A stretch of DNA of 64,000 nucleotides, from the sequence record NC_110934.1. One strand, given 5' to 3'. Origin of the DNA: Klebsiella phage KPP2018. Positions 1-53,244 of the stretch are shown here, piece after piece (positions within the stretch are counted from its first letter, which is position 1; each line of letters begins with the position of its first letter). Made by a program: the position numbers and the translations under genes. Below the pieces are notes generated by a model, which did not search any database, was not told where the DNA came from, and was given only the letters and a program-made list of their open reading frames with translations.

Positions 1-64
1 TCTTGTTCTGTCATGTTGCTCCCCCAGTTCAATTTATGTAATTATTATACAGAACTTTTGGAAA

Positions 65-352
65 CTAAGCAACTACATTTTTTAAGAATTTGATGCCTTT
101 CTTTCTCTTCTTATATTTCCACGTTAATGGATTCTGTCGATTATGAACACTTGAGATCTTTGTCTCATCAAAGTTCTTCAATATCATGTAATCACAAGAT
201 AGTTGTTCTAATGGAATGTGATCACCGTCAAAAGCGTGTACATAAGGTTGTTGACTAGCACGATAATGATAGACTTTGTTAATTCTACGTTTCAGCGACT
301 TATCCGCGCAGTAAATAAAGAAGTTTTCAGGATGCATCAGCAGCTCCTTCAA
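65..352 (-). CDS. hypothetical protein (95 aa); duplicated at 29529-29816
   Basis: ORF track; directly upstream (in transcription) of it lie tRNA genes, probably co-transcribed. Confidence 0.5.
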   Translation of the reverse strand: MKELLMHPENFFIYCADKSLKRRINKVYHYRASQQPYVHAFDGDHIPLEQLSCDYMILKNFDETKISSVHNRQNPLTWKYKKRKKGIKFLKNVVA

Positions 353-354
353 TT

Positions 355-429
355 TGGTGCACCCTGTTCGTATCGAACGAACCTCTCAAGCTCTTCAGGC
401 AAGCGCTAATCCATCTCAGCTAAAGGTGC
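355..429 (-). tRNA. tRNA, anticodon loop CUGAAGA (GAA, Phe-like); anticodon stem has two U-U mismatches
   Basis: Reverse complement GCACCUU..GUUCG-UUCGAUA-CGAAC-AGGGUGC-A-CCA: 7-bp acceptor, D-arm, T-arm and encoded CCA. Confidence 0.65.
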
Positions 430-435
430 AAATTT

Positions 436-512
436 TGGCAGGGGTAAAGGTATTCGAAACCTTTTCATGGGTTTTGGAGGCCCATTTGCAACCTATGCGT
501 ACCCCAATTATT
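436..512 (-). ncRNA. tRNA-like remnant (T-arm AAGGU-UUCGAAU-ACCUU, U1-U72 mismatch, 9-nt anticodon loop); possibly pseudo-tRNA
   Basis: T-arm and acceptor recognisable but D-arm and anticodon arm non-canonical. Confidence 0.3.
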
Positions 513-515
513 AAT

Positions 516-590
516 TGGCACACCCAACGAGGATCGAACTCGTGTTCCCACTGTGAAAGAGTGGTGTCCTAACCGCTAGACGATAGGTGC
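516..590 (-). tRNA. tRNA-Glu (UUC)
   Basis: Revcomp has acceptor, D-arm GUCUAGCGGUUAGGAC, anticodon stem CCACU/AGUGG with loop CUUUCAC, T-arm GAGUUCGAUCCUCG, CCA. Confidence 0.85.
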
Positions 591-597
591 ATTAAAT

Positions 598-685
598 TGG
601 TGGGGAAAGATGGAGTCGAACCACCCGAGTCGCAATGACAACTGATTTACAGTCAGCTCTGCTACCACTTACAGAATATTTCCCC
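598..685 (-). tRNA. tRNA-Tyr (GUA), type II with long variable arm
   Basis: Revcomp GGGGAAA..; anticodon loop CUGUAAA; long variable arm; T-arm GGUUCGACUCC; acceptor GGGGAAA/UUUCCCC; CCA. Confidence 0.8.
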
Positions 686-815
686 ATATTTAGAAGTATT
701 CAAAAATTCTCATTTAAACACTTTTAAATATGTTTCCAAATTAGATAAATATTATATCAAGTTTTATAGTATTGGGCAAGTCAAATTTTAAAGAACTTGC
801 CCAATGCTGTATTAG

Positions 816-1091
816 TTAGTCGAACTTAGGAGTGACAGTTAAGGAGAACGGAAGTTCAAAAACTTCTTCGCCCTCATCACTAATAGTGATTACACGACCT
901 TTAAGTTCAGACATTGAAATATCAATATCAGCTTTTGCATCTGGAGCCATGCCAGCTTCAATACATTTAGCTTTAATTTCCGGCAGAAGTTCTACATCGT
1001 AGAAATAAAGCCATTCAATCTCACCTTCCCAGCCTTCCCAGGATTTACAGATTGCACTTTCAATACCAGCAGCTATAACACGATTTTGCAT
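816..1091 (-). CDS. hypothetical protein (91 aa)
   Basis: ORF track; preceded by conserved early promoter/leader; duplicated at 30280-30555. Confidence 0.55.
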   Translation of the reverse strand: MQNRVIAAGIESAICKSWEGWEGEIEWLYFYDVELLPEIKAKCIEAGMAPDAKADIDISMSELKGRVITISDEGEEVFELPFSLTVTPKFD

Positions 1092-1160
1092 TCGTTAACT
1101 CCTTCATCAATTTATATAACTATTATATCAGAAATTTAAAGCAAAAGGCAAGTACATTTT
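1092..1160 (-). promoter_or_regulatory. Conserved T5-type early promoter (-35 TTGCCT, 17 bp, -10 TATAAT) plus conserved leader/RBS
   Basis: Minus-strand reading: ..TTGCCTtttgctttaaatttctgaTATAATagttatataaattgatgaaggag; member of >20-copy element family. Confidence 0.7.
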
Positions 1161-1181
1161 TAAAAATTCTGTTTGGAGGAG

Positions 1182-1388
1182 CTAAACTCCAGATTCTTCA
1201 GCCAAGTCTAGACTAATAAGAGATATAGCCATAATTGCTGCTCCGTGCTCTTTTTCTCCAGTCTCTTTAGCTAGAGTTATAATATCAAGAAATTGCTTAT
1301 GAAAATCTGCAACCTCTTGAGTTATACCTGCCTCAGCAATCATGCCTTTAAGCATGAAGCGTTGTGCGGTAATTTCAGGATTAGCCAT
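1182..1388 (-). CDS. hypothetical protein (68 aa)
   Basis: ORF track; start ATG overlaps stop of upstream small ORF (ATGGCTAA coupling). Confidence 0.5.
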   Translation of the reverse strand: MANPEITAQRFMLKGMIAEAGITQEVADFHKQFLDIITLAKETGEKEHGAAIMAISLISLDLAEESGV

Positions 1389-1548
1389 GTTGTTTCTCCA
1401 GTTTCATCTTTAATAGTCTACAAATAAAATCAATGTCTTCATCCGTGCCTAGATCTCTATCTTCAAGGGTTGCCTTGAAGTTTTTAGTCAATTCCATGAG
1501 AATAACTTCTCTAGAACGACGTGTTGGCGGAGGTGGATGTCTATACAT
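1381..1548 (-). CDS. hypothetical small protein (55 aa, MYRHPPPPTRRSREVILMEL...)
   Basis: Unlisted (<60 aa) ORF; stop overlaps start of 1182-1388 gene, typical translational coupling. Confidence 0.4.
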   Translation of the reverse strand: MYRHPPPPTRRSREVILMELTKNFKATLEDRDLGTDEDIDFICRLLKMKLEKQHG

Positions 1549-1563
1549 CTTATTTCCTTAATT

Positions 1564-1640
1564 TGGTAGGGGTGGTGGGATTCGAACCCACAAAACCTGA
1601 ATTTTAAGTCCAGTACCTATGCCAATTCGATTACACCCCC
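1564..1640 (-). tRNA. tRNA, anticodon loop CUUAAAA (UAA, Leu-like) but type-I length with short variable loop
   Basis: Revcomp GGGGGUG..acceptor pairs with CACCCCU; anticodon stem CUGGA/UUCAG; T-arm GUGGG-UUCGAAU-CCCAC; A-CCA. Confidence 0.6.
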
Positions 1641-1647
1641 ATGTAGT

Positions 1648-1836
1648 TTAGTCAATTACTTTTGAGGCTTCAAGGTAGTCGATATAGTGTACGTTTTCTA
1701 CCGTAATCATATAATCCGCCACTTTATCCATAGCTTGGGCTTCAGAGGTAGCTCTGGCTAACCTATATCCTTTTCTATACTCATCCGGGTATTCTCTATC
1801 TTGAATAAACACAACATAAACTATATATAGATCCAT
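1648..1836 (-). CDS. hypothetical protein (62 aa)
   Basis: ORF track. Confidence 0.45.
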   Translation of the reverse strand: MDLYIVYVVFIQDREYPDEYRKGYRLARATSEAQAMDKVADYMITVENVHYIDYLEASKVID

Positions 1837-1855
1837 TTGTGACCTCTATTTAATT

Positions 1856-1933
1856 TGGTGGCTCCCCGAGGATTCGAACCTACGTACCTTCCGGTTATGA
1901 GCCGGGTGCTCATACCATATGAGCTTGAGAACC
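1856..1933 (-). tRNA. tRNA-Met/Ile2 (CAU)
   Basis: Revcomp GGUUCUC..; anticodon stem CCGG with loop CUCAUAA; T-loop UUCGAAU (T-stem has mismatches); acceptor with two G-U pairs; CCA. Confidence 0.65.
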
Positions 1934-1939
1934 AAAATC

Positions 1940-2028
1940 TGGCGGAAGAAGTGGGAATCGAACCCACAAGGCTATATTTCAAACCGACAGATTAGCAATC
2001 TGCTGCAATACCATTATGCTATTCTTCC
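1940..2028 (-). tRNA. tRNA-Ser (GCU), type II
   Basis: Revcomp GGAAGAA..; anticodon stem GCAGA/UCUGU, loop UUGCUAA; long variable arm; T-arm GUGGG-UUCGAUU-CCCAC; G-CCA. Confidence 0.8.
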
Positions 2029-2049
2029 GAATTTATAAGATATATTATA

Positions 2050-2571
2050 TTAGAAATTTAGCTTCATAGCAAGAAAATTTTTCAAGTTTTCGGTAGACAT
2101 CTCATCCACATCTACAGGAGAAACAAATCCATTTAATTGTCTAGCAAACTTTTCACCAGCAGGATCATTGTCCCCAACAGCTACCAATTTAAAAGGTAGT
2201 AATTTCAGTTGCTTTAATAACGCTTTTCCTGGAGAAGAACCCAACATTGCCAGGGCTGGATAACCCGCATTATGTAATGCAACTGCCTTAAATACAGATT
2301 CAGCAATCAATACTACTTTTTCATCCCCATTGAGAGTTTCTAGTCCCCATACACACTGTGTAGTAGAATAAGTAAAGTATTTAGCTTCAAAGGGGCACTT
2401 ACCATGACCTTTTGGAGCAGAAGGATTATAAGTTTGATAGCCCCTCAACATTCCAGAGAAATCATACAACGGGACTGTTAGCCACCCTTCCGGACTTAAC
2501 CAGCAATGATATTTATCTGTATCAAATCCTCTAGATAAGAGGTGCTGTGTTAGCTCATCAACATTCATATT
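2050..2571 (-). CDS. Toprim-domain protein (DnaG-primase-like Toprim: E in IAES, DxD in AVGDNDPAG)
   Basis: ORF track 2050-2619; real start is Met17 (MNVDELTQ..) because the conserved TATAAT+ATAAATTTGAGAGAGG leader ends there. Confidence 0.6.
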   Translation of the reverse strand, partial: NMNVDELTQHLLSRGFDTDKYHCWLSPEGWLTVPLYDFSGMLRGYQTYNPSAPKGHGKCPFEAKYFTYSTTQCVWGLETLNGDEKVVLIAESVFKAVALHNAGYPALAMLGSSPGKALLKQLKLLPFKLVAVGDNDPAGEKFARQLNGFVSPVDVDEMSTENLKNFLAMKLNF

Positions 2572-2663
2572 TGGTTCCTCTCTCAAATTTATAGATATAT
2601 TATACAGAGAATTTAGCATTCAAGCAATCAAATTTTTTAACTTTTTAGAGGAAAATCATAGGG

Positions 2664-2686
2664 CACTTAAGGGTAGCAGATAAGTG
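2664..2686 (+). promoter_or_regulatory. Inverted repeat CACTTAAG-N7-CTTAAGTG-like (CACTTA..TAAGTG), candidate operator upstream of Gly-rich gene promoter
   Basis: cacttaagggtagcagataagtg: 6-bp arms are reverse complements. Confidence 0.3.
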
Positions 2687-2744
2687 GTGAGGACCAAAAT
2701 TTGTGACCCCACTAAAAATCCAGGGGCAATTTTTAAAGACCCCT

Positions 2745-2772
2745 TGACATTTTCGCTGGGGTAGTGTAAAGT
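2745..2772 (+). promoter_or_regulatory. sigma70-like promoter (TTGACA, 16 bp, TAAAGT) for the Gly-rich protein operon; copy 1
   Basis: cccTTGACAttttcgctggggtagtgTAAAGTatatg; not of the conserved phage early-promoter class. Confidence 0.55.
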
Positions 2773-2834
2773 ATATGTTATGGATGAGTGATCAAAGAGA
2801 CACACATTTTCTATATACTAGGAGGTGTCAAAAA

Positions 2835-3611
2835 ATGACAGAAGAAGTAGCTAAGAGTCCTGAGACCGTCGCTAGCGTTGCAGCAGAACTGCACCGTCAC
2901 GAGGAATCAGATAAGAAAAAGTGGGAGAAGGTCAGAGCCTACGAAGAGAAACATCGTGAACACGATGAAGATGATGAAGAAGATGACGATGATGAGTATT
3001 GTCATAAATATGGAAAACGTAAAATGCAAGAACCAGTAAACGTATTCACTAGTGGCTTCCCTGGCCTAATGGGTGGTTACCCAGCAAACGCAGGTGCTTT
3101 CGGTGGTGAAGGTATGGGACTATTCGGAGCTATCCTAATCGGTGCTCTATTAACAGGCGGATTCGGTGGTTTTGGTGGATTTGGTGGACGTGGTGTAGTT
3201 GGTGAAGGTACCGCAGTTGATGCAGTACTTCAGAACCAAGATACCGCTAGTATTCTAGCAGCTATTAACACTACTCGTACAGAAGCTAACCAGGGTACTG
3301 GAGCTGTTTTAAGCGCAGTTAACAATGGTTTTAGCCAGACATCCCAAAACCAGAGCCGTGATACTCAGTCTGTACTAACTACGATCTATGGTACGGGTGC
3401 TAATCTGTCTAATCAAATCTGCCAGGAAACTCGCAACGTTATTCAGGGTCAGTTCGATCTTTCTCGCCAGATTGATCAATCTTTCGCAGCTAACCAGATA
3501 GCTCGTGCACAAGATAAGTTTGATTCTGCACAGATCGCTTTCCAGCAGACTTTACAAACTAATAACCAGTTTGCCGCTGTTCAGGCTCAGATGTGTGCTA
3601 ACCAGTTATGA
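2835..3611 (+). pseudogene. Truncated copy (258 aa + 1 junction aa) of Gly-zipper/QN-rich membrane protein gene; truncated at repeat boundary 3605/3606
   Basis: RBS AGGAGG 9 nt before ATG 2835; identical to first 257 codons of the 331-aa gene at 32299-33291, then reads L-stop across the junction. Confidence 0.75.
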
Positions 3612-14915: not shown

Positions 14916-15206
14916 TTAGTCCTCTGGATTATCATCCAGGAAATTTTTAATAGCTTCGTGCATAGTTTCTTTACGAAGCTGACGTCCAATCAGAATATGA
15001 TTAGCTTCTATTCGACCATTAGGTAAGCGATCCGCCAGAACTACTACAGGAACTTGGCGCACACCAAATTTCTGCATTAATTCTGTATTATCAGTCTCTT
15101 TATGGATTTCCAAATTATAGTCATTGACTACTTTATCAAATACTGGCTCAAACATTTTGCAAGGGTTGCAAGTAGAACCTTTCAATAGATATACTAATTT
15201 ACTCAT
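14916..15206 (-). CDS. thioredoxin/glutaredoxin-like protein (CxxC: CNPC)
   Basis: 96 aa, CNPC active-site motif near N-terminus, thioredoxin-fold spacing. Confidence 0.6.
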   Translation of the reverse strand: MSKLVYLLKGSTCNPCKMFEPVFDKVVNDYNLEIHKETDNTELMQKFGVRQVPVVVLADRLPNGRIEANHILIGRQLRKETMHEAIKNFLDDNPED

Positions 15207-15630
15207 AGTTATTAATGGCCTCTAAGAAGTTTCTCATAGTTTTTACGGTTGCAGTGCTTAGATCAAGATTTACACCCAAACACTCGGTTAATGCCTCCTG
15301 ATAAGGAGCCTTCAATCTGCCTTCTGGGACTTCTACCTTTTTATACTCTTTATTTTTGACCTTTTTAATCATAGTCTCTAGTACAAGAAGCGGTAATTTA
15401 GCACCTTCAATATCAGTACCCAAAAGTTCAGTTAAAATTTTATTAAGATCAAGACGAGTTAACTTTTTGCCCTTAGACATAGATGCACCTACCTTTGTAT
15501 CAATAGATTTTTCCGCTTTCTTTTCGAGCTTTTTGTACTCAGGAGAGTCATGATCACGGAGTGCAATGTTTAGCTCGTAATGTGGTATACGAAAATGTTC
15601 CGCCATTTGAGTATAGAAACGATCAGACAT
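15199..15630 (-). CDS. hypothetical protein (143 aa)
   Basis: ORF track. Confidence 0.55.
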   Translation of the reverse strand: MSDRFYTQMAEHFRIPHYELNIALRDHDSPEYKKLEKKAEKSIDTKVGASMSKGKKLTRLDLNKILTELLGTDIEGAKLPLLVLETMIKKVKNKEYKKVEVPEGRLKAPYQEALTECLGVNLDLSTATVKTMRNFLEAINNYE

Positions 15631-22491: not shown

Positions 22492-22797
22492 TTACAGATC
22501 GGGGCGTTCATCTTCGAACGCCACGAAGCCATCAAATTCATCATTTGAAATACCACCAGTATAGGTGATGTCCGCAATCATCGCTTCCATTTTCCGGATC
22601 TCCGAGGTTTTCATGCCTGCTTTACTATTCTTATAGTATTTGCGAGGGTTCCCACACATCCAACAAGAACAGATGCAAGGAGTAGTAGTGACAATACCTA
22701 ACCGCTTAGGGCTTTCTTCATGTGGAAAGATTGTCCAATACTTCTTGCGGTTGTTCTTCACACGTTGCCGGTGATGACGTCTTAATGCTCGATCCAC
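22492..22797 (-). CDS. Cys-rich zinc-ribbon-like basic protein (101 aa; CICSCWMCGN)
   Basis: ORF track. Confidence 0.5.
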   Translation of the reverse strand: MDRALRRHHRQRVKNNRKKYWTIFPHEESPKRLGIVTTTPCICSCWMCGNPRKYYKNSKAGMKTSEIRKMEAMIADITYTGGISNDEFDGFVAFEDERPDL

Positions 22798-22878
22798 ACA
22801 TTTCTCCTAAAACTTGGGAGATAAATGGAGTTTGCTCGACTACCTTGCGTAGTTCGGAGAAACCGTATCCAAACCCCA

Positions 22879-23247
22879 TTACATCGCCTGAGTAAATGTA
22901 CGACTAATAACGTCGTTCTGTTGTTCACGAGTCAGTGCATTAAATCGAACAGCGTAGCCAGAGACACGGATGGTCAACTGATGATATTTTTCAGGATGTT
23001 TCTGCGCATCCAAAAGCTGATCACGGCTTAACACATTGACATTTAGGTGCTGACCACCTTCGATTTGAGGGGCGACTTCCACTTTGACTTCACGGAAGGC
23101 TTCGGGATCGAATTGTGGTGTGATACCTTCTAGATCTTCAACTAGAACTTTCTGTTTAAGTTCACCATTGTCGGAGTATAGCTGAATAATCTGATTTTCA
23201 TGAACAAGGTTAATTACGCCAGATTTAAGATTTTGATATGCTTTCAT
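22879..23247 (-). CDS. grcA: autonomous glycyl radical cofactor GrcA (YfiD) homolog
   Basis: C-terminal half aligns to E. coli GrcA incl. glycyl-radical motif [12 protein letters not shown] and [12 protein letters not shown]. Confidence 0.8.
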
Positions 23248-23289
23248 TAGATCTCCCCGATGTTAGAATTTGGCTCAGCTCTTTATTCT

Positions 23290-23521: not shown

Positions 23522-23597
23522 TGGTAGTTAGTAGTGGATTTGAACCACTGTAGTCGCTCCGTATGAGGGAGGTGCATAACCACTCTGCCAACTAACT
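23522..23597 (-). tRNA. tRNA-Met/Ile2 (CAU)
   Basis: Acceptor AGUUAGU/ACUAACU, anticodon loop CUCAUAC, T-arm GGUUCAAAUCC, A-CCA. Confidence 0.75.
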
Positions 23598-23693
23598 GTT
23601 ATGTTTTACTAGACTAAGTAAGTATTCTTTATACTCTTTAGACCAATTAGCTTTTTTAAACTTTCCTGGACGCATAGTCTTAATTCCTAAATT

Positions 23694-23770
23694 TGGTACT
23701 CCGGGAGGGATTTAAACCCCCGATCTCTCGGTTATCAGCCGAGTGCTTTAGATCGCTAAGCTACCGAAGC
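23694..23770 (-). tRNA. tRNA-Ile (GAU)
   Basis: Anticodon stem CUCGG/CCGAG loop CUGAUAA; T-arm GGGGGUUUAAAUCCCUCC; A-CCA. Confidence 0.8.
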
Positions 23771-29459: not shown

Positions 29460-29528
29460 ATTTATCTTGTTCTGTCATGTTGCTCCCCCAGTTCAATTTA
29501 TGTAATTATTATACAGAACTTTTGGAAA

Positions 29529-29816
29529 CTAAGCAACTACATTTTTTAAGAATTTGATGCCTTTCTTTCTCTTCTTATATTTCCACGTTAATGGATTCTG
29601 TCGATTATGAACACTTGAGATCTTTGTCTCATCAAAGTTCTTCAATATCATGTAATCACAAGATAGTTGTTCTAATGGAATGTGATCACCGTCAAAAGCG
29701 TGTACATAAGGTTGTTGACTAGCACGATAATGATAGACTTTGTTAATTCTACGTTTCAGCGACTTATCCGCGCAGTAAATAAAGAAGTTTTCAGGATGCA
29801 TCAGCAGCTCCTTCAA
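29529..29816 (-). CDS. hypothetical protein (95 aa), repeat copy 2 of 65-352
   Basis: Identical to copy 1. Confidence 0.5.
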   Translation of the reverse strand: MKELLMHPENFFIYCADKSLKRRINKVYHYRASQQPYVHAFDGDHIPLEQLSCDYMILKNFDETKISSVHNRQNPLTWKYKKRKKGIKFLKNVVA

Positions 29817-29818
29817 TT

Positions 29819-29893
29819 TGGTGCACCCTGTTCGTATCGAACGAACCTCTCAAGCTCTTCAGGCAAGCGCTAATCCATCTCAGCTAAAGGTGC
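29819..29893 (-). tRNA. tRNA (GAA, Phe-like), copy 2
   Basis: Identical to 355-429. Confidence 0.65.
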
Positions 29894-29979
29894 AAATTTT
29901 GGCAGGGGTAAAGGTATTCGAAACCTTTTCATGGGTTTTGGAGGCCCATTTGCAACCTATGCGTACCCCAATTATTAAT

Positions 29980-30054
29980 TGGCACACCCAACGAGGATCG
30001 AACTCGTGTTCCCACTGTGAAAGAGTGGTGTCCTAACCGCTAGACGATAGGTGC
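29980..30054 (-). tRNA. tRNA-Glu (UUC), copy 2
   Basis: Identical to 516-590. Confidence 0.85.
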
Positions 30055-30061
30055 ATTAAAT

Positions 30062-30149
30062 TGGTGGGGAAAGATGGAGTCGAACCACCCGAGTCGCAAT
30101 GACAACTGATTTACAGTCAGCTCTGCTACCACTTACAGAATATTTCCCC
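30062..30149 (-). tRNA. tRNA-Tyr (GUA), copy 2
   Basis: Identical to 598-685. Confidence 0.8.
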
Positions 30150-30279
30150 ATATTTAGAAGTATTCAAAAATTCTCATTTAAACACTTTTAAATATGTTTC
30201 CAAATTAGATAAATATTATATCAAGTTTTATAGTATTGGGCAAGTCAAATTTTAAAGAACTTGCCCAATGCTGTATTAG

Positions 30280-30555
30280 TTAGTCGAACTTAGGAGTGAC
30301 AGTTAAGGAGAACGGAAGTTCAAAAACTTCTTCGCCCTCATCACTAATAGTGATTACACGACCTTTAAGTTCAGACATTGAAATATCAATATCAGCTTTT
30401 GCATCTGGAGCCATGCCAGCTTCAATACATTTAGCTTTAATTTCCGGCAGAAGTTCTACATCGTAGAAATAAAGCCATTCAATCTCACCTTCCCAGCCTT
30501 CCCAGGATTTACAGATTGCACTTTCAATACCAGCAGCTATAACACGATTTTGCAT
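30280..30555 (-). CDS. hypothetical protein (91 aa), copy 2
   Basis: Identical to 816-1091. Confidence 0.55.
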   Translation of the reverse strand: MQNRVIAAGIESAICKSWEGWEGEIEWLYFYDVELLPEIKAKCIEAGMAPDAKADIDISMSELKGRVITISDEGEEVFELPFSLTVTPKFD

Positions 30556-30645
30556 TCGTTAACTCCTTCATCAATTTATATAACTATTATATCAGAAATT
30601 TAAAGCAAAAGGCAAGTACATTTTTAAAAATTCTGTTTGGAGGAG

Positions 30646-30852
30646 CTAAACTCCAGATTCTTCAGCCAAGTCTAGACTAATAAGAGATATAGCCATAATT
30701 GCTGCTCCGTGCTCTTTTTCTCCAGTCTCTTTAGCTAGAGTTATAATATCAAGAAATTGCTTATGAAAATCTGCAACCTCTTGAGTTATACCTGCCTCAG
30801 CAATCATGCCTTTAAGCATGAAGCGTTGTGCGGTAATTTCAGGATTAGCCAT
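30646..30852 (-). CDS. hypothetical protein (68 aa), copy 2
   Basis: Identical to 1182-1388. Confidence 0.5.
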   Translation of the reverse strand: MANPEITAQRFMLKGMIAEAGITQEVADFHKQFLDIITLAKETGEKEHGAAIMAISLISLDLAEESGV

Positions 30853-31027
30853 GTTGTTTCTCCAGTTTCATCTTTAATAGTCTACAAATAAAATCAATGT
30901 CTTCATCCGTGCCTAGATCTCTATCTTCAAGGGTTGCCTTGAAGTTTTTAGTCAATTCCATGAGAATAACTTCTCTAGAACGACGTGTTGGCGGAGGTGG
31001 ATGTCTATACATCTTATTTCCTTAATT

Positions 31028-31104
31028 TGGTAGGGGTGGTGGGATTCGAACCCACAAAACCTGAATTTTAAGTCCAGTACCTATGCCAATTCGATTACAC
31101 CCCC
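31028..31104 (-). tRNA. tRNA (UAA, Leu-like, type-I length), copy 2
   Basis: Identical to 1564-1640. Confidence 0.6.
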
Positions 31105-31111
31105 ATGTAGT

Positions 31112-31300
31112 TTAGTCAATTACTTTTGAGGCTTCAAGGTAGTCGATATAGTGTACGTTTTCTACCGTAATCATATAATCCGCCACTTTATCCATAGCTT
31201 GGGCTTCAGAGGTAGCTCTGGCTAACCTATATCCTTTTCTATACTCATCCGGGTATTCTCTATCTTGAATAAACACAACATAAACTATATATAGATCCAT
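31112..31300 (-). CDS. hypothetical protein (62 aa), copy 2
   Basis: Identical to 1648-1836. Confidence 0.45.
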   Translation of the reverse strand: MDLYIVYVVFIQDREYPDEYRKGYRLARATSEAQAMDKVADYMITVENVHYIDYLEASKVID

Positions 31301-31319
31301 TTGTGACCTCTATTTAATT

Positions 31320-31397
31320 TGGTGGCTCCCCGAGGATTCGAACCTACGTACCTTCCGGTTATGAGCCGGGTGCTCATACCATATGAGCTTGAGAACC
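31320..31397 (-). tRNA. tRNA-Met/Ile2 (CAU), copy 2
   Basis: Identical to 1856-1933. Confidence 0.65.
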
Positions 31398-31403
31398 AAA
31401 ATC

Positions 31404-31492
31404 TGGCGGAAGAAGTGGGAATCGAACCCACAAGGCTATATTTCAAACCGACAGATTAGCAATCTGCTGCAATACCATTATGCTATTCTTCC
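31404..31492 (-). tRNA. tRNA-Ser (GCU), copy 2
   Basis: Identical to 1940-2028. Confidence 0.8.
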
Positions 31493-31513
31493 GAATTTAT
31501 AAGATATATTATA

Positions 31514-32035
31514 TTAGAAATTTAGCTTCATAGCAAGAAAATTTTTCAAGTTTTCGGTAGACATCTCATCCACATCTACAGGAGAAACAAATCCATTTAA
31601 TTGTCTAGCAAACTTTTCACCAGCAGGATCATTGTCCCCAACAGCTACCAATTTAAAAGGTAGTAATTTCAGTTGCTTTAATAACGCTTTTCCTGGAGAA
31701 GAACCCAACATTGCCAGGGCTGGATAACCCGCATTATGTAATGCAACTGCCTTAAATACAGATTCAGCAATCAATACTACTTTTTCATCCCCATTGAGAG
31801 TTTCTAGTCCCCATACACACTGTGTAGTAGAATAAGTAAAGTATTTAGCTTCAAAGGGGCACTTACCATGACCTTTTGGAGCAGAAGGATTATAAGTTTG
31901 ATAGCCCCTCAACATTCCAGAGAAATCATACAACGGGACTGTTAGCCACCCTTCCGGACTTAACCAGCAATGATATTTATCTGTATCAAATCCTCTAGAT
32001 AAGAGGTGCTGTGTTAGCTCATCAACATTCATATT
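31514..32035 (-). CDS. Toprim-domain protein, copy 2
   Basis: Identical to 2050-2571. Confidence 0.6.
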   Translation of the reverse strand, partial: NMNVDELTQHLLSRGFDTDKYHCWLSPEGWLTVPLYDFSGMLRGYQTYNPSAPKGHGKCPFEAKYFTYSTTQCVWGLETLNGDEKVVLIAESVFKAVALHNAGYPALAMLGSSPGKALLKQLKLLPFKLVAVGDNDPAGEKFARQLNGFVSPVDVDEMSTENLKNFLAMKLNF

Positions 32036-32208
32036 TGGTTCCTCTCTCAAATTTATAGATATATTATACAGAGAATTTAGCATTCAAGCAATCAAATTTT
32101 TTAACTTTTTAGAGGAAAATCATAGGGCACTTAAGGGTAGCAGATAAGTGGTGAGGACCAAAATTTGTGACCCCACTAAAAATCCAGGGGCAATTTTTAA
32201 AGACCCCT

Positions 32209-32236
32209 TGACATTTTCGCTGGGGTAGTGTAAAGT
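32209..32236 (+). promoter_or_regulatory. sigma70-like promoter (TTGACA-16-TAAAGT) of Gly-rich/Q-rich/Cys-rich operon, copy 2
   Basis: Identical to 2745-2772. Confidence 0.55.
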
Positions 32237-32298
32237 ATATGTTATGGATGAGTGATCAAAGAGACACACATTTTCTATATACTAGGAGGTGTCAAAAA

Positions 32299-33291
32299 AT
32301 GACAGAAGAAGTAGCTAAGAGTCCTGAGACCGTCGCTAGCGTTGCAGCAGAACTGCACCGTCACGAGGAATCAGATAAGAAAAAGTGGGAGAAGGTCAGA
32401 GCCTACGAAGAGAAACATCGTGAACACGATGAAGATGATGAAGAAGATGACGATGATGAGTATTGTCATAAATATGGAAAACGTAAAATGCAAGAACCAG
32501 TAAACGTATTCACTAGTGGCTTCCCTGGCCTAATGGGTGGTTACCCAGCAAACGCAGGTGCTTTCGGTGGTGAAGGTATGGGACTATTCGGAGCTATCCT
32601 AATCGGTGCTCTATTAACAGGCGGATTCGGTGGTTTTGGTGGATTTGGTGGACGTGGTGTAGTTGGTGAAGGTACCGCAGTTGATGCAGTACTTCAGAAC
32701 CAAGATACCGCTAGTATTCTAGCAGCTATTAACACTACTCGTACAGAAGCTAACCAGGGTACTGGAGCTGTTTTAAGCGCAGTTAACAATGGTTTTAGCC
32801 AGACATCCCAAAACCAGAGCCGTGATACTCAGTCTGTACTAACTACGATCTATGGTACGGGTGCTAATCTGTCTAATCAAATCTGCCAGGAAACTCGCAA
32901 CGTTATTCAGGGTCAGTTCGATCTTTCTCGCCAGATTGATCAATCTTTCGCAGCTAACCAGATAGCTCGTGCACAAGATAAGTTTGATTCTGCACAGATC
33001 GCTTTCCAGCAGACTTTACAAACTAATAACCAGTTTGCCGCTGTTCAGGCTCAGATGTGTGCTAACCAGAACTCTCTGGAACGTCAGATCGCTGAATGTT
33101 GCTGTGAACTTCAGACTGCGATCGCTGGTGTAACTACTGCGCGTATCCAGGATGAGTTAGACGCATGTCGCCTACGTGAAGCAATCGCTGCGGGTAGCGG
33201 TGCTAACGGTCAGGTAATTAATCAAATCGCTTTAAGTCTTGGTGCTATCACTCAGACTCTGGCTGGTCTGCAGGCTAAACTGCCGGCTTAA
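32299..33291 (+). CDS. Gly-zipper membrane protein with acidic N-terminus and Q/N/S/T-rich coiled C-terminal domain (331 aa)
   Basis: RBS AGGAGG; acidic DEDDEEDDDDE stretch, hydrophobic GLFGAILIGALLTGGFGGFGGFGG segment, then QN-rich low-complexity domain with CCC motif; ~50% GC vs ~38% background. Confidence 0.65.
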   Translation: MTEEVAKSPETVASVAAELHRHEESDKKKWEKVRAYEEKHREHDEDDEEDDDDEYCHKYGKRKMQEPVNVFTSGFPGLMGGYPANAGAFGGEGMGLFGAILIGALLTGGFGGFGGFGGRGVVGEGTAVDAVLQNQDTASILAAINTTRTEANQGTGAVLSAVNNGFSQTSQNQSRDTQSVLTTIYGTGANLSNQICQETRNVIQGQFDLSRQIDQSFAANQIARAQDKFDSAQIAFQQTLQTNNQFAAVQAQMCANQNSLERQIAECCCELQTAIAGVTTARIQDELDACRLREAIAAGSGANGQVINQIALSLGAITQTLAGLQAKLPA

Positions 33292-36626: not shown

Positions 36627-37094
36627 TTAAGTTTTAGTGACAACAGGTTTATAGAACGTATGTCCCTTAATCTTAGTTGTTTTCTTAAATTTCTTTGTCC
36701 AGTAAGGTTTATCTTTACCACTATGGAAGTATAGTGCTCCATGTGTAGGATCTTGTGGTAAATCAACGTAGTATATCACTCTAGCTAAATTCTTAGCGGT
36801 TTGCCAAGCCTCATCAGTTTTATCAACTTTTGGTCTCTTAGATACCCAAGAGAACTGGTTAGACTGATATACTACTTTACAGTAGGAATCTGGGAATTTA
36901 CCGGAGTTTACACGGTTTTTAGTAACATGTGCAATCGCCGTCATTCCCTTTATGCCCTCACCACGACTCTCGAAATAGATATTTTTAGCAATGCAATCTA
37001 TTTCTTTTGCATCGTGCGATGCCTGACTACTAAAGCTGAAGGTAAGGGCAGCTACTAAAAGCAAAGCTGCCTTCATTCTTTTTACTCCTGCCAA
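36627..37094 (-). CDS. secreted cell-wall hydrolase (SleB/CwlJ-like Hydrolase_2 domain)
   Basis: Signal peptide; IAKNIYFESRGEG..GMTAIAHVTKNRV..QFSW motifs. Confidence 0.7.
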   Translation of the reverse strand: MAGVKRMKAALLLVAALTFSFSSQASHDAKEIDCIAKNIYFESRGEGIKGMTAIAHVTKNRVNSGKFPDSYCKVVYQSNQFSWVSKRPKVDKTDEAWQTAKNLARVIYYVDLPQDPTHGALYFHSGKDKPYWTKKFKKTTKIKGHTFYKPVVTKT

Positions 37095-37399
37095 TCATAT
37101 TCAACACGATTGGGATTTTCTTTATACCCTAAGTCAAGCAAATCATTACGCATATTTTGCTTAGCTACTGGGTTCGAGGTTACTAGTACCACTTTCTTTG
37201 GTCTCTGCCCAAATTCTAAGAGTAAACGAAGAATTTGATAACCTTCCATACCATCTACAGCCAAGTCATTATCCATATAAACGAAATGGCCTGTGGTATC
37301 AGTTTTATTCAGAAACTCTACAGCGGCTTCTGGGGTTCGAATGATAATGTCCATTCCGTGAAGATTACGCACATCATCAATCAAAATATGAAAAGTCAT
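37082..37399 (-). CDS. stand-alone CheY-like receiver (REC) domain protein
   Basis: ILIDDV.. then FVYMDNDLAVDGMEGYQILRLL (phospho-acceptor Asp + DGMEG loop), VLVTSNP (conserved Thr/Ser), 105 aa. Confidence 0.55.
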   Translation of the reverse strand: MTFHILIDDVRNLHGMDIIIRTPEAAVEFLNKTDTTGHFVYMDNDLAVDGMEGYQILRLLLEFGQRPKKVVLVTSNPVAKQNMRNDLLDLGYKENPNRVEYDWQE

Positions 37400-37841
37400 A
37401 ATAGCCTCGTTTCATCAATTTAAAAATATATTATACATATAATTTAGTGGATTAGCAAATACATTTTTAAATTGTGAAACTAGTAAACCGATAAACAGCC
37501 TAGAGGCGCCACAGGCCATATCTTATGAGCCATGTACCTTTGATCTAGGGTTTGAATCATCAACGAATACTTTGCATCTTTTAGCTTTAGAAGTTTAGAA
37601 GTTTGAGTTCTTTAAACTTTTCAGCTTTCATACTTAAATGTTGATCTTTGAAGTTGTGTCGGTAATATCAACGACGCTTTGTTCTTACGTGTCAGCTTAA
37701 AAGGCTGGTGTAATAAACATAATCTCCAATAGATTATACTTTATAGTATGGTCAGCGGTCTTATTTAACCTCGTATTTCAACCGCTGCTGCGAGGTAAGA
37801 TGCTTGGGCTTTCGTCTACCGATTTACTAGCTTTTAAATTA

Positions 37842-40665: not shown

Positions 40666-41115
40666 TTAATTTATTAACTGTAAGCTTCTTTTAATTTCAG
40701 ACCTTACCTGCATCAAAAGAACTCCTAAAGTATTATCCCCGATGCCTCGGCAAACACCCCAATATGTATCTCCCCAGGTATTTCCTTCGATCAAAGTTGC
40801 ATTTTTTGTTGCTAACAGTTTGTCTCTCAAATCAGGAATTGCAAACTTTAACCGTAAAAGCTCTAGCATTACATCATCTTTTACCTTATCCCAGTCATGG
40901 CGCAGAGTTAATTTACGTCCTCTACGTTTGGCAACTCCTGCGTTTAGAGAGCGTAGTACATGAGCTACATCATCTTTTTGGTCTGATTTCATAGCCTGAA
41001 AAGCATGTTCTACAGTATCAGCATGCCATATTTCATTTAGATATTCGAAAGTAATTGGTGATAAATAAAAGTTTGATAAGAAACTATAAGTACCTTTAAA
41101 TTCAGTAATCTTCAT
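40666..41115 (-). CDS. NADAR (YbiA/DUF1768) domain protein
   Basis: N-terminal FKGTYSFLSNFY and ..GNTWGDTYWGVC.. match NADAR family signatures. Confidence 0.65.
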   Translation of the reverse strand: MKITEFKGTYSFLSNFYLSPITFEYLNEIWHADTVEHAFQAMKSDQKDDVAHVLRSLNAGVAKRRGRKLTLRHDWDKVKDDVMLELLRLKFAIPDLRDKLLATKNATLIEGNTWGDTYWGVCRGIGDNTLGVLLMQVRSEIKRSLQLIN

Positions 41116-41396
41116 TTTTTACGCCCCGCATCTTTAGCCTCCTCGGCTGTATAGATATACTGATAAGCCCCTTTGGAGTAGGCTGGAGCAGTACACATTT
41201 TCTTACGCTCAATCTCTTCTTGAGCTTTTCTTTCGCGTTCAGCTAATTCTTCGTCCAGATAAACTAAACGTTGTTCTGGAGGAGGTGGAAGTCGTGTCTC
41301 TGGCTCACCAATATTAGCCTTTCTTATTTGACGAGGTGATTGTGCACGTTTTCTCAATGGTTTAAATCCTAATGAATTTGAGTTATAAATCCACAT
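41112..41396 (-). CDS. hypothetical protein (94 aa)
   Basis: ORF track. Confidence 0.5.
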   Translation of the reverse strand: MWIYNSNSLGFKPLRKRAQSPRQIRKANIGEPETRLPPPPEQRLVYLDEELAERERKAQEEIERKKMCTAPAYSKGAYQYIYTAEEAKDAGRKK

Positions 41397-48759: not shown

Positions 48760-50634
48760 ATGAATCGCAATGAAGAACTAAAGTATAAAGAAATGCAGGC
48801 GTTAATTAGAAACTGCAAAGAGATTATCGAAGGGTCAGCAGATGAAGAGCTGCTGTTTAATAATGCTAATAAACCCTCAGAACGTTTCCCTACACAAAGG
48901 GATATGCTTGCAGGTGAATTGAGTAAGTATCTGATTCTAGAAGAAATGCCAATTCAGATTCGAAATGCTCATATGATTGGGGATATTCATTTCCATGATG
49001 CTGATTATGCTGCATTAGGCATGACTAATTGTTGTCTGGTAGCTCTGGAAGATATGTTGAAGAATGGTATGAAGGTTGGTAATGCTGAAATTAGCACTCC
49101 AAACTCTATCACTACTGCGGCGGCTATTACTGCTCAGATTATCACTCAGGTTAGCTCCCATCAGTATGGTGGTACTTCTGTAGATCGCCTTGATGAAGTA
49201 TTAGCCCCTTATGTTCGTAAATCCTATGACAAAAATCATGCGTTTGCAAAACGTTGGACTAAGGATGAAGCCAAAGCATCCGTAATGGCTACGGAGATGA
49301 CTGAAAAAGAAGTCTATGATGCCTGTCAAGGTCTGGAGTATGAAATCAATACGATGTTCAACTCTAATGGTCAGAGTCCATTTATTACCTTTGGTTTTGG
49401 TCTAGGAACTTCTTGGGAAGCACGTCTAGTACAGAAAGCAATACTGAAAGTACGCATGGATGGTTTAGGTATCAATAAACGTACAGCTATCTTCCCGAAA
49501 CTGGTATTTGTACTTCGTGATGGTGTTAATATGAAACCAGGAGATGTTAATTATGACATCAAGAAGTTAGCTATGAAATGTACTGCTGAACGTATGTATC
49601 CAGACTATATCAGCTATGATAAGGTTGTGGAAGTTACTGGGGACTACAAAGTTTCTATGGGCTGCCGTTCATTCTTAGCTGCTACAGAAGATGGTGAAAC
49701 TGCCGGTCGTAATAACTTAGGTGTTGTTTCTGTAAACTTGCCTAGAATTGCTATCGAAGCTGAAGGAAATATTGACCTATTCTTTGATTTGCTTGAGCTA
49801 CGTGTAGATACAGCATTAAAAGCGTTGGAGTGGAGAGTTGATCGCTTAAAATACATTCAAGCTAAAGCTGCGCCCATCCTCTATATGTCAGGAGCCTTTG
49901 GGTTACGCTTGGAGCCTGATGAATACGTATTCGATCATTTCTATAACCGTGCTTCTGTATCTCTAGGGTATATTGGTTGCCATGAAATGCTACAGTTCAT
50001 GTTTGGCAAAGATGTAGACACAATGTCCGAGACCTGCATCAAGTTTGTTCAGCGTGTATTGCAGTACATGCGGGATAGAGTCGATCAGAAGAAGGAAGAA
50101 ACTAAGTTAGGTTATAGCCTGTATGCTACACCATCAGAATCCCTATGTGACCGTTTTTGTCGTCTAGACCGTGAATATTTCCCGGAACATGAAGATATTC
50201 TGTCCAAAGGATACTACACTAACTCTCACCACCTTGATGTAGAACGTAAAGTTGCTCCCAATGTGAAATTTGATTATGAATCTAACTTTACTCCGATTGC
50301 TTCTGGTGGGTGCATTTCCTATGTAGAACTACCGGATATGAAACGATTCCCAGATGCACTGGAATGGGTTATTAATTATGCTGCTAGTAAGGTTCATTAC
50401 TTCGGTATTAATACCCCAGTGGATTCTTGTGGTAAATGTGGATTCTTAGGTGAAACAATAGCATCCGAAGATGGATTTAAGTGCCCTATCTGTGGTAATC
50501 ATGACCCCGAAACTCTTGAAGTAACTCGTCGAGTTTGTGGGTATCTTGGAAATCCGGGTGCTCGTCCATTTAACCCAGGCAAACAGCACGAGGTGATGGG
50601 CAGAGTGAAACATCAGGATATTCGAGCTAAATAA
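48760..50634 (+). CDS. nrdD: anaerobic (class III) ribonucleotide reductase
   Basis: 624 aa; C-terminal Zn-ribbon CGKCG..CPICG and glycyl-radical motif RVCGYLG. Confidence 0.9.
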   Translation: MNRNEELKYKEMQALIRNCKEIIEGSADEELLFNNANKPSERFPTQRDMLAGELSKYLILEEMPIQIRNAHMIGDIHFHDADYAALGMTNCCLVALEDMLKNGMKVGNAEISTPNSITTAAAITAQIITQVSSHQYGGTSVDRLDEVLAPYVRKSYDKNHAFAKRWTKDEAKASVMATEMTEKEVYDACQGLEYEINTMFNSNGQSPFITFGFGLGTSWEARLVQKAILKVRMDGLGINKRTAIFPKLVFVLRDGVNMKPGDVNYDIKKLAMKCTAERMYPDYISYDKVVEVTGDYKVSMGCRSFLAATEDGETAGRNNLGVVSVNLPRIAIEAEGNIDLFFDLLELRVDTALKALEWRVDRLKYIQAKAAPILYMSGAFGLRLEPDEYVFDHFYNRASVSLGYIGCHEMLQFMFGKDVDTMSETCIKFVQRVLQYMRDRVDQKKEETKLGYSLYATPSESLCDRFCRLDREYFPEHEDILSKGYYTNSHHLDVERKVAPNVKFDYESNFTPIASGGCISYVELPDMKRFPDALEWVINYAASKVHYFGINTPVDSCGKCGFLGETIASEDGFKCPICGNHDPETLEVTRRVCGYLGNPGARPFNPGKQHEVMGRVKHQDIRAK

Positions 50635-50733: not shown

Positions 50734-51114
50734 ATGGAATTAAAGCCCTATATAGTTGAATCTACATGTGGTAGTTTCCATCTGGGTGTGGATGATATTG
50801 CTGAGGCTGTCTTTGCTGCTACAGGTGATTACTCGCATATAGAGGGTGTTGCATACCCTACCATTATTGGCGATTGGGTGGGAACAAATCTAGATGTATC
50901 ACCTTATAACCCATATTGCTTGTTTGATGAAGACAGAGATGAAGTAAAATGTAATCTTGAATTTGTGTATAATAGAGTGTTAAAAGTGTACCAACGTAGC
51001 CCCAATGGGTACGAAGATATTACTTGGAGTATTAAACAGTATCTTAAAGATATATACTCTAGTTTTTCTGACGAAGACCTAGAAACAGTTGCAGTGGAGT
51101 TTAATAATGACTAA
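50734..51114 (+). CDS. hypothetical protein (126 aa)
   Basis: ORF track. Confidence 0.55.
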   Translation: MELKPYIVESTCGSFHLGVDDIAEAVFAATGDYSHIEGVAYPTIIGDWVGTNLDVSPYNPYCLFDEDRDEVKCNLEFVYNRVLKVYQRSPNGYEDITWSIKQYLKDIYSSFSDEDLETVAVEFNND

Positions 51115-51313: not shown

Positions 51314-51503
51314 GGGTTTAAACGCCGCTTTGGAAAACGCATTAATGCAGCACTGGGAAACTGGCTATAGGGATGGTGTTGAATCTTGCGCTACTATGCT
51401 AGAAGTTATTGCTAATACCTTAATGGAGAAAGGTAATAAAGAATTAGCTGAGCTGTTAGATAGTATTGTGCAAAACTTTAGAGAACAGGTGAAAAATGCG
51501 TAG
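51282..51503 (+). CDS. hypothetical protein (73 aa)
   Basis: ORF track. Confidence 0.45.
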   Translation: MAFSKPMLPDKGLNAALENALMQHWETGYRDGVESCATMLEVIANTLMEKGNKELAELLDSIVQNFREQVKNA

Positions 51504-52311: not shown

Positions 52312-52804
52312 TACTCCAATTATTTTTCTAGACATTGATGGGGTGCTCAATTCGAGCATCTCCCACCATCATGCACCCGATGATGAAAAGATTTTCTTTG
52401 GAAGTGACTGGGTTTTCAAACCGCTTCTCAAAGCTTTTCAGGACTTTATTCGCCCTTCTCCGATAATGATTGTTGGAGTATCATCTTGGTTCTCTGTTAG
52501 AAATGAGATGGAGAACGTTCAGATTATGACCGGATTAGGTCTTATCGATCGCTTTCTTGGTACAACGGATTTTACTGGGGGTGGATTATCTAGGGGTAAT
52601 TCTGTTCTTCGCTTCGTTGAAAAGCATAGGCTCAAACATTGGTGTGTGCTTGATGATGCGGGTGCTATGATGTATCAGTATCCAACGGTTATAGTCAACG
52701 GTAGGACTGGGATAAATCTTCAAGATTTAAAAGCTGTTAGCTATATGCTAGAATTTAGCCCAGATCTTGAAATGTGTAAGTCCTTACAACAATTTAAGGT
52801 GTAA
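52292..52804 (+). CDS. HAD-superfamily phosphatase-like protein
   Basis: Motif I IIFLDIDGVLN; 20-nt overlap with Sir2 gene. Confidence 0.55.
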   Translation: MYQEISNTPIIFLDIDGVLNSSISHHHAPDDEKIFFGSDWVFKPLLKAFQDFIRPSPIMIVGVSSWFSVRNEMENVQIMTGLGLIDRFLGTTDFTGGGLSRGNSVLRFVEKHRLKHWCVLDDAGAMMYQYPTVIVNGRTGINLQDLKAVSYMLEFSPDLEMCKSLQQFKV

Positions 52805-52806
52805 AT

Positions 52807-53235: not shown

Positions 53236-53244
53236 GGGGGTATA

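What the first reader, a model, noticed from the sequence alone, without database searches (positions are those of the whole stretch)
22879..23247. Phage-encoded GrcA-like glycyl-radical spare part, together with NrdD but no recognisable NrdG activase
The 122-aa protein ends with the GrcA/YfiD signature ..[17 protein letters not shown].. In E. coli, GrcA replaces the oxygen-cleaved glycyl-radical domain of pyruvate formate-lyase.
- The same genome carries class III RNR NrdD (48760-50634, glycyl motif RVCGYLG).
- No radical-SAM activase with a CxxxCxxC motif is visible in the window.
- This suggests reliance on host NrdG or PflA for activation, and possibly GrcA-mediated repair of NrdD or host PFL during infection under fluctuating oxygen.
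Basis: partly seen in the sequence, partly recalled or inferred. Interest (0 to 1): 0.6.

Follow-up and report, generated by a model that had tools for sequence, protein, structure and literature searches.

The report
T5-like phage GrcA spare-part gene
This is the T5-family copy of a small phage protein already known from phage T4, which most likely replaces the oxygen-broken radical tip of the host enzyme pyruvate formate-lyase; that T5-like phages carry an anaerobic ribonucleotide reductase without its activating enzyme is real but was already reported.

Summary
It encodes 122 aa with a Pfam Gly_radical domain (1.1e-17) and a C-terminal 62 aa that is 48/62 identical to E. coli PflB. NrdD is at 48760-50634.

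No radical-SAM activase was found in the window. None was found in the complete genome of a relative (Salmonella phage L6jm) that is 99.1% identical over the 2.5 kb around the gene. Tests used: motif scan, tblastn, a NrdG profile, and Pfam on ORFs of 100 aa or more.

The window is a T5-like phage; the exact protein is in Klebsiella phage KPP2018. The gene is the ortholog of T5.056. It occurs in about 440 T5-like records and is a full-length homolog of T4 Y06I, which was shown in vitro in 2001 to rescue oxygen-cleaved PFL after activation by host PFL-AE. NrdD without NrdG in T5-like phages was reported in 2013. The finding is therefore already known.

Repair of NrdD is not supported: the protein has no similarity to NrdD's radical domain and no cysteines.

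Extras:
- This allele carries a unique P89H change at an otherwise invariant proline.
- In other phage lineages the gene sits inside nrd operons, and the NrdD here is formate-type, which suggests that PFL rescue secures formate for NrdD.

The parts
22879..23247 (-). GrcA-like autonomous glycyl-radical protein, 122 aa (ortholog of T5.056, homolog of T4 Y06I/vs.6). The radical glycine is G97 in the motif IRVSGYAV. This allele carries a singleton P89H (CAT instead of CCT).
23253..23258 (-). Shine-Dalgarno GGGGAG, 6 nt upstream of the ATG.
   Evidence: Read directly from the sequence.
22718..22879 (-). 53-aa ORF whose ATG overlaps the grcA stop (TAATG). It is phrog_31464, of unknown function, and may be translationally coupled to grcA.
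22492..22797 (-). 101-aa ORF (T5.055 ortholog, phrog_4499) with the Cys cluster CICSCWMC. It is not a radical-SAM enzyme by any profile. It overlaps the 53-aa ORF.
23522..23770 (-). tRNA-Met and tRNA-Ile just upstream on the same strand. The grcA-like gene lies at the distal end of the T5-type tRNA cluster; 21 tRNA genes were found between 22000 and 33000, all on the minus strand.
48760..50634 (+). Class III ribonucleotide reductase NrdD, 624 aa, without an ATP-cone. It keeps the equivalents of E. coli C175, M382, C384 and G681 and the four Zn cysteines, which marks it as formate-type. No nrdG follows it.
50734..51114 (+). 126-aa ORF directly downstream of nrdD (T5.100 ortholog, phrog_11748). 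It was checked as a possible NrdG remnant and rejected.

Best explanation
The gene encodes a phage version of the GrcA/YfiD 'spare part' for host pyruvate formate-lyase. Proposed mechanism: (1) During infection under microaerobic or fluctuating oxygen, the glycyl radical of host PflB (G734) reacts with O2 and the chain is cleaved there. (2) The C-terminal domain of the phage protein (residues about 61-122) copies PflB residues 698-759 and takes the place of the lost radical domain. (3) Host PFL-activating enzyme PflA, a radical-SAM enzyme, installs the radical on G97. The phage encodes no activase of its own, so both this protein and the phage NrdD must use host activases (PflA and NrdG respectively). 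(4) Restored PFL keeps making acetyl-CoA, and hence ATP through acetate, and formate. Because the phage NrdD has the formate-type active site, formate is probably also the reductant for anaerobic dNTP synthesis. That would explain why this gene travels with nrd genes in several phage lineages. Shown here: domain identity, conservation, absence of activases, genomic contexts. Shown by others for the T4 homolog: activation by PFL-AE and rescue of cleaved PFL in vitro. Inferred: the same activity for the T5-type protein, and the formate link.
For: 1. Pfam Gly_radical 1.1e-17.
2. The best solved-structure matches are YfiD 6OWR (2.5e-29) and PFL 1H16/2PFL (1e-25), residues 61-122 against 698-759.
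3. The C-terminal 62 aa are 48/62 identical to PflB and 47/62 to E. coli GrcA.
4. [10 protein letters not shown] is invariant in phage and bacterial members.
5. The protein is a full-length match to phrog_1209 (3e-46, positions 1-122 of 121).
6. It is 52% identical over its full length to T4 vs.6/Y06I. Y06I was validated in vitro with PFL-AE and cleaved PFL (PMC8683613; PMC13450708).
7. The AF2 model has a helix-hairpin-helix with G97 at the hairpin tip. The best Foldseek hits are YfiD and PFL.
8. The gene is conserved in 444 T5-like records at the DNA level and in 1582 phage records at the protein level.
9. It has a strong SD and lies in the early tRNA transcription unit.
10. No activase was found.
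11. The NrdD keeps the C175/M382/C384/G681 equivalents. Formate is the reductant of most characterised class III RNRs (PMC4493059).
12. The gene sits in nrd operons in other phages: nrdD-grcA-x-nrdG in K64-1-like jumbo phages, nrdD-nrdG-grcA in Aeromonas phages, nrdA-nrdB-grcA in Vibrio phage D479.
Against: 1. The T5-type protein itself has never been assayed.
2. Its N-terminal half is the most divergent in the family. It scores 116.9 bits on the NCBIfam GrcA equivalog model against a cutoff of 170, aligning only residues 50-122. In YfiD the N-terminal half matters for binding cleaved PFL and for activation (PMC8683613).
3. This allele has P89H at a proline that is invariant in 120/120 homolog representatives and 79/79 IMG/VR loci, so this copy could be impaired.
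4. In T5-like phages the gene is about 25 kb from nrdD on the other strand. The operon argument therefore comes from other lineages.
5. The formate link is inference only. No paper proposing it was found.
Confidence: 0.75

Rival explanations
1. The protein is a spare part, or radical donor, for the phage's own NrdD rather than for PFL.
For: The gene is embedded between or next to nrdD and nrdG in K64-1-like jumbo phages and in Aeromonas phages. Reviews note that spare parts for glycyl-radical enzymes other than PFL have not been excluded.
Against: There is no detectable similarity to the phage NrdD (best E=1.1; the radical-loop stretch matches 6 of 15 at E=1.3). The protein has zero cysteines, whereas NrdD's C-terminal domain needs a Cys4 Zn site. 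The C-terminal domain is under strong constraint to stay PFL-like (48/62 identical, with all 35 family-invariant positions in that half) in every phage lineage, including those where it sits in the nrdDG operon.
Confidence: 0.04
2. The gene is a decaying or neutral passenger. It was acquired from a host grcA or pflB and has no role in infection, and in this genome it is inactivated by P89H.
For: The singleton P89H lies at an invariant site. The gene is a small accessory ORF in a region rich in hypothetical ORFs and homing endonucleases.
Against: The gene is intact in hundreds of T5-like genomes at 89-99% protein identity, with an invariant C-terminal domain, and also in T4-like and jumbo phages. 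That is purifying selection, not decay. The N-terminus is phage-specific but conserved within clades. P89H is a single base change in one genome and says nothing about the family.
Confidence: 0.1
3. The protein acts as a decoy or modulator: it titrates host PflA or binds intact PFL to redirect host fermentation, rather than repairing damage.
For: It carries the exact PflA recognition loop RVSGYAV. Its N-terminal half differs from that of bacterial GrcA and is predicted at moderate confidence to be a folded beta domain, whereas YfiD's N-terminus is disordered.
Against: The T4 homolog restores activity rather than inhibiting it. Full conservation of the residues that pack into the PFL barrel argues for productive insertion.
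Confidence: 0.08

Closest known systems
Bacteriophage T4 Y06I (gene vs.6)
   Same: Similar size (120 vs 122 aa). It aligns over its full length at about 52% identity, falls in the same PHROG (phrog_1209), shares the MKAYQ N-terminus and has an identical [10 protein letters not shown] loop. It was shown in vitro to be activated by PFL-AE and to rescue O2-cleaved PFL.
   Different: T4 also encodes its own NrdG; the T5-like phage does not (against 19, 41, 65). T4's C-terminal roughly 60 aa are identical to E. coli GrcA, whereas the T5-type tail (..RTFTQAM) resembles PflB (..RTFTQSM) as much as it resembles GrcA. The T5-type N-terminal half has an extra [10 protein letters not shown] segment.
E. 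coli GrcA/YfiD (NCBIfam TIGR04365; PDB 6OWR)
   Same: Same two-part architecture and an identical radical loop. The C-terminal domain is 47/62 identical. Weak N-terminal homology is visible: Q5 and R52 are nearly invariant.
   Different: The window protein fails the equivalog cutoff (116.9 against 170 bits) because the N-terminal half does not match. The N-terminus is predicted to be a beta-sheet at pLDDT around 75, whereas it is disordered in YfiD.
C-terminal glycyl-radical domain of PflB (PDB 1H16/2PFL, residues 698-759)
   Same: 48/62 identical. The model superposes at 2.7 A over 50 columns.
   Different: It is a free-standing 122-aa protein, not the end of a 760-aa enzyme. It has no catalytic Cys418/419 barrel.
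T5 gene T5.056 and the nrdD-without-nrdG arrangement of T5, SPC35 and EPS7
   Same: Direct ortholog (about 94% identical) in the same position next to the tRNA cluster. The nrdB-nrdA-phoH / nrdD layout is the same and there is no nrdG.
   Different: This genome has the P89H allele, and its assembly contains a duplication.

Membership tests
Glycyl-radical domain (Pfam PF01228 Gly_radical) | A profile match above the gathering score that includes the RVxGY radical loop. | tested here: met
   64.9 bits against a cutoff of 22.2, residues 62-103. The motif IRVSGYAV has G97.
GrcA/YfiD autonomous glycyl radical cofactor (NCBIfam TIGR04365 equivalog) | A whole-protein score at or above the curated cutoff of 170 bits, which requires a full-length match including the N-terminal half. 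| tested here: not met
   116.9 bits, aligned only at residues 50-122. Calibration: E. coli GrcA scores 234. The experimentally validated T4 Y06I scores 153.3 and also fails, and other phage members score 105-137. The cutoff therefore separates bacterial orthologs from phage homologs; it does not separate function.
GrcA/YfiD-type spare part (functional definition) | A free-standing protein of about 14 kDa whose C-terminal half copies the PFL radical domain (PFL 698-759). | tested here: met
   122 aa; 48/62 identical to PflB. The best PDB sequence and fold hits are YfiD and PFL.
GrcA/YfiD-type spare part (functional definition) | The radical is installed by PFL-AE, and activity is restored to O2-cleaved PFL. 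| not testable with these tools
   Only the T4 homolog and E. coli YfiD have been assayed.
Phage Y06I/vs.6 family (phrog_1209) | A full-length profile match. | tested here: met
   3.1e-46, residues 1-122 on profile positions 1-121 of 121.
Class III RNR system NrdD + NrdG | NrdD with the catalytic Cys, the radical Gly and the Zn-ribbon. | tested here: met
   Equivalents of C175, C384, G681 and the four Cys are conserved, and M382 is also present. PRK09263 scores 844 bits.
Class III RNR system NrdD + NrdG | A cognate radical-SAM activase NrdG encoded by the same genome. | tested here: not met
   None in the window, in the complete L6jm genome, or in T5 positions 24-62 kb. Tests used: motif scan, tblastn with four activases, NrdG HMM, Pfam, and the deposited annotations. 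NrdG is nevertheless common in other phages (2273 records).

The most novel reading that the evidence does not exclude
Phage GrcA-like proteins may be an accessory of phage anaerobic ribonucleotide reduction. By keeping host PFL alive after oxygen exposure they would secure formate, the reductant of formate-type NrdD. This would explain why the gene has been placed independently inside nrdD/nrdG or nrdAB operons in jumbo Klebsiella/Salmonella phages, Aeromonas phages and a Vibrio phage, and why it occurs together with NrdD in T4- and T5-like phages. The extreme version, direct servicing of NrdD, is much less likely (about 0.04).
Probability: 0.3. Interest if true: 0.45.

Novelty: already known. 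Interest (0 to 1): 0.22.

Why it matters
If the T5-type protein works like T4 Y06I, it is one more example of a lytic phage protecting a host fermentation enzyme so that energy, and possibly formate for dNTP synthesis, keep flowing during infection in the oxygen-fluctuating gut. That is useful background for phage therapy with T5-like phages, but it is not a new principle. The only parts that go beyond the literature I could find are:
- the repeated placement of the gene in nrd operons, and the formate link this suggests;
- the observation that the NrdG-less T5-type NrdD has a more host-like radical site than phage NrdDs that bring their own activase.

Tried and rejected
1. NrdG remnant downstream of nrdD. 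E. coli and Ah1 NrdG and the NrdG HMM gave weak hits (E=0.56, 5.7 and 0.09) to the ORF after nrdD in L6jm. The match is a 25-residue stretch (KDKWLWIDY against KDIWLWTGY). The L6jm ORF is unrelated to the ORF at that position in the window and in T5 (T5.100, phrog_11748), which gives no hit. Rejected as chance.

2. The 101-aa ORF next to grcA with CICSCWMC as a mini-activase. It has no Pfam or NCBIfam hit, belongs to phrog_4499 of unknown function, and is too short. Rejected.

3. Independent capture of the pflB 3' end. Rejected because the N-terminal half is homologous to T4 and jumbo-phage proteins and, weakly, to bacterial GrcA (Q5, R52).

4. Aeromonas phage PhAER-4 (115 kb, carries nrdG) as a possible T5-like phage with nrdG. 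Its context does not look T5-like and its taxonomy is unassigned. Not pursued.

5. Literature searches for a T5-like PFL or GrcA discussion, or for a published formate-NrdD-phage link, found nothing.

6. Sigma-70 promoter and terminator scans around the gene were at background level.

7. I could not intersect the record lists of the GrcA and NrdG searches. 'No T5-like phage has nrdG' therefore rests on L6jm (whole genome), T5 (24-62 kb plus annotation) and Dwivedi et al. 2013.

Full report
**Observation**

The ORF at 22879-23247 is real but lies on the minus strand. The + strand frame is full of stop codons. The minus strand gives a 122-aa protein, MKAYQNLKS...[33 protein letters not shown].

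It has a GGGGAG Shine-Dalgarno 6 nt before the ATG. Its TAA stop overlaps the ATG of the next small ORF in the sequence TAATG.

Pfam assigns a Gly_radical domain (1.1e-17, 64.9 bits, cutoff 22.2). The ORF at 48760-50634 (+) is a class III ribonucleotide reductase NrdD (2.7e-172).

**Where the window comes from**

The 2.5 kb around the gene is 99.1% identical to Salmonella phage L6jm (Tequintavirus, Demerecviridae). It matches 444 phage records at the DNA level, mostly Salmonella and Escherichia phages, and all those listed are about 97-118 kb.

The exact protein sequence is in the public collection only as Klebsiella phage KPP2018, on a 137,988-bp contig.

In phage T5 itself the ortholog is T5.056, annotated 'putative acetyltransferase-related protein, match to IPR001150'. 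It lies in the early region at the end of the tRNA cluster. The window has the same layout, with tRNA-Met and tRNA-Ile just upstream and 21 minus-strand tRNA genes between 22 and 33 kb.

**Is an activase really missing?**

- A six-frame motif scan found CxxxCxxC only in two spurious short ORFs and in the 101-aa ORF 22492-22797. That ORF has no Pfam or NCBIfam match and belongs to phrog_4499 of unknown function.
- Pfam on the non-overlapping window ORFs of 100 aa or more returned no Radical_SAM, Fer4_12 or Fer4_14. ORFs already identified as NrdA, NrdB, NrdD, thymidylate synthase, DHFR, ligase, helicase and origin-binding protein were not submitted.
- tblastn with E. coli NrdG, E. coli PflA, Aeromonas phage Ah1 NrdG and T4 NrdG against the window and the whole L6jm genome gave nothing better than E=0.56.
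- A 5-sequence NrdG profile run without filters against all six-frame ORFs of the window, L6jm and T5 24-62 kb gave a best E of 0.09. That hit is a 25-residue stretch in an L6jm ORF that has no counterpart in the window.
- Neither the L6jm annotation nor the T5 annotation lists an nrdG. T5 nrdD is annotated as monocistronic, with its own promoter and terminator.
- NrdG is otherwise common in phages (2273 records).
- Dwivedi et al. 2013 already state that many phages carry nrdD with nrdAB but no nrdG. [quoted passage not shown]

The 'no activase' observation is therefore correct and already published.

**What the protein is**

The C-terminal half is a copy of the PFL radical domain.
- By sequence, the best solved structures are YfiD (6OWR, 2.5e-29) and PFL (1H16/2PFL, about 1e-25, query 61-122 against PFL 698-759).
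- Over those 62 residues it is 48/62 identical to PflB and 47/62 to E. coli GrcA.
- In an alignment with T4, Aeromonas, Vibrio and jumbo-phage homologs and bacterial GrcAs, 35 positions are invariant. All of them lie in the C-terminal half, and they include [12 protein letters not shown].

The N-terminal half is weakly but detectably homologous across phage and bacterial members (Q5 and R52 are nearly invariant; MKAYQ is shared with T4). The gene therefore descends from a grcA-type gene and not from an independent capture of the pflB 3' end.

The protein matches phrog_1209 over its full length (3e-46). On the NCBIfam GrcA equivalog model it scores 116.9 bits against a cutoff of 170 and aligns only at residues 50-122. 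As a calibration, E. coli GrcA scores 234. T4 Y06I, the phage protein shown experimentally to work, scores 153 and also fails. The failed cutoff reflects the phage-type N-terminus, not function.

An AlphaFold model (mean pLDDT 70.7) has two parts:
- A C-terminal helix, a beta-hairpin with G97 at its tip, and a second helix. Foldseek matches this part to YfiD and PFL.
- An N-terminal region (1-54) predicted at moderate confidence to be a small beta-sheet with no structural match.

**Known biology**

Wagner et al. 2001 showed that E. coli YfiD and T4 Y06I are radicalised by PFL-AE and reconstitute oxygen-cleaved PFL. [quoted passage not shown]

The most likely mechanism for the T5-type protein is therefore the same. 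Host PflA puts the radical on G97, and the domain replaces the cleaved C-terminus of host PflB, or possibly TdcE.

**Could it serve NrdD instead?**

Direct comparison with the phage NrdD finds nothing significant (best E=1.1). The protein has no cysteine, while NrdD's radical domain includes a Cys4 zinc site that is conserved here. Its sequence is held close to PFL in all lineages. I rate this reading at about 0.04.

**A link to ribonucleotide reduction nevertheless exists at the genome level**

- In Aeromonas phage Ah1 the order is nrdD-nrdG-vs.6-nrdC-nrdH.
- In K64-1-like jumbo phages it is nrdD-grcA-DUF4326-nrdG.
- In Vibrio phage D479 it is nrdA-nrdB-grcA.

Of the 80 IMG/VR loci examined:
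- 5 have nrdD and nrdG within 1.3 kb of the gene;
- 9 have nrdA and nrdB upstream within 10 kb, 2 of which are among those 5;
- 4 have nrdB within 10 kb downstream;
- 10 are full-length pflB rather than a free-standing gene;
- the 29 T5-like loci have no nrd gene within 10 kb.

The window NrdD keeps the equivalents of E. coli C175, M382, C384 and G681. From my own knowledge of the Wei/Stubbe/Drennan work, this is the formate-type signature. Formate is the reductant of most characterised class III RNRs (PMC4493059), and PFL is the cell's formate source. My inference is that rescuing PFL also secures the reductant for phage NrdD. I found no paper stating this, and it remains untested.

**Host dependence of NrdD**

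The 31 residues around the radical glycine are 25/31 identical to E. coli NrdD in the window. The figure is 18/31 for T4, 22/31 for Ah1 and 21/31 for the K64-1-like phage, all of which carry their own NrdG. This fits use of host NrdG, but the sample is small.

**Caveat on this allele**

The window protein differs from L6jm by one change, P89H (CCT to CAT). The proline corresponds to PFL P726 and GrcA P94. It is present in 120/120 homolog representatives and 79/79 IMG/VR loci. No record among 50,697 phage records is 100% identical (best 99.2%). It may be a sequencing error, a laboratory mutation or a tolerated variant. Its effect is unknown.

**Verdict**

The finding is already known: an ortholog of an annotated T5 gene, a homolog of the characterised T4 Y06I, and a published nrdD-without-nrdG pattern. 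Interest is low. The nrd-operon association and the formate hypothesis are the only modestly new angles.

Noticed in passing
window 1-3605 and 29465-33069: The two stretches are 100% identical direct copies (3,605 bp) spaced 29,464 bp apart. The first copy runs to the window edge, so the repeat may be much longer. The source contig (Klebsiella phage KPP2018) is 137,988 bp, against 97-122 kb for the T5-like records seen here, and the same GrcA protein has two accessions in it (WBF69885.1, WBF69952.1). This suggests a tandem duplication of about 29.5 kb, or an assembly artefact.
   Followed up: partly
window 22981-22983 (codon 89 of the grcA-like gene): A singleton P89H (CAT against CCT in L6jm) lies at a proline that is invariant in 120/120 homolog representatives and 79/79 IMG/VR loci. 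It is equivalent to PFL P726.
   Followed up: yes
window 22492-22797 (-) and 22718-22879 (-): Two overlapping small ORFs lie just downstream of grcA, and each matches its own PHROG (phrog_4499, 101 aa, Cys cluster CICSCWMC; phrog_31464, 53 aa, start overlapping the grcA stop). T5 annotates the longer one (T5.055). L6jm annotates the 53-aa ORF and a shortened 55-aa version of the longer ORF. Which of them is translated is unclear.
   Followed up: partly
window 51496-53637 (+): Downstream of nrdD there is a Sir2-family protein, a HAD_SAK_2 domain protein ('Swiss Army Knife' RNA repair HAD) and two paralogous DUF7415 proteins. This is an NAD/RNA-repair-like cluster of unknown role, also present in T5 (T5.102-T5.107).
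   Followed up: no
window 48760-50634 (+): The phage NrdD starts at profile position 87 of the E. coli-type model, so it lacks the N-terminal ATP-cone. Its radical-site 31-mer is more host-like (25/31) than in phage NrdDs that come with their own NrdG (18-22/31).
   Followed up: partly
window 37085-37411 (-), 40669-41118 (-), 14919-15221 (-): Other accessory domains seen in the Pfam sweep: cREC_REC (cyclic-phosphate processing receiver), NADAR, and a small thioredoxin-like protein.
   Followed up: no
L012 6001-7163; L008 1367-4384; L014 2656-6372: In three other phage lineages the GrcA-like gene sits inside ribonucleotide reductase operons: nrdD-grcA-DUF4326-nrdG, nrdD-nrdG-grcA-nrdC-nrdH, and nrdA-nrdB-grcA.
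   Followed up: yes
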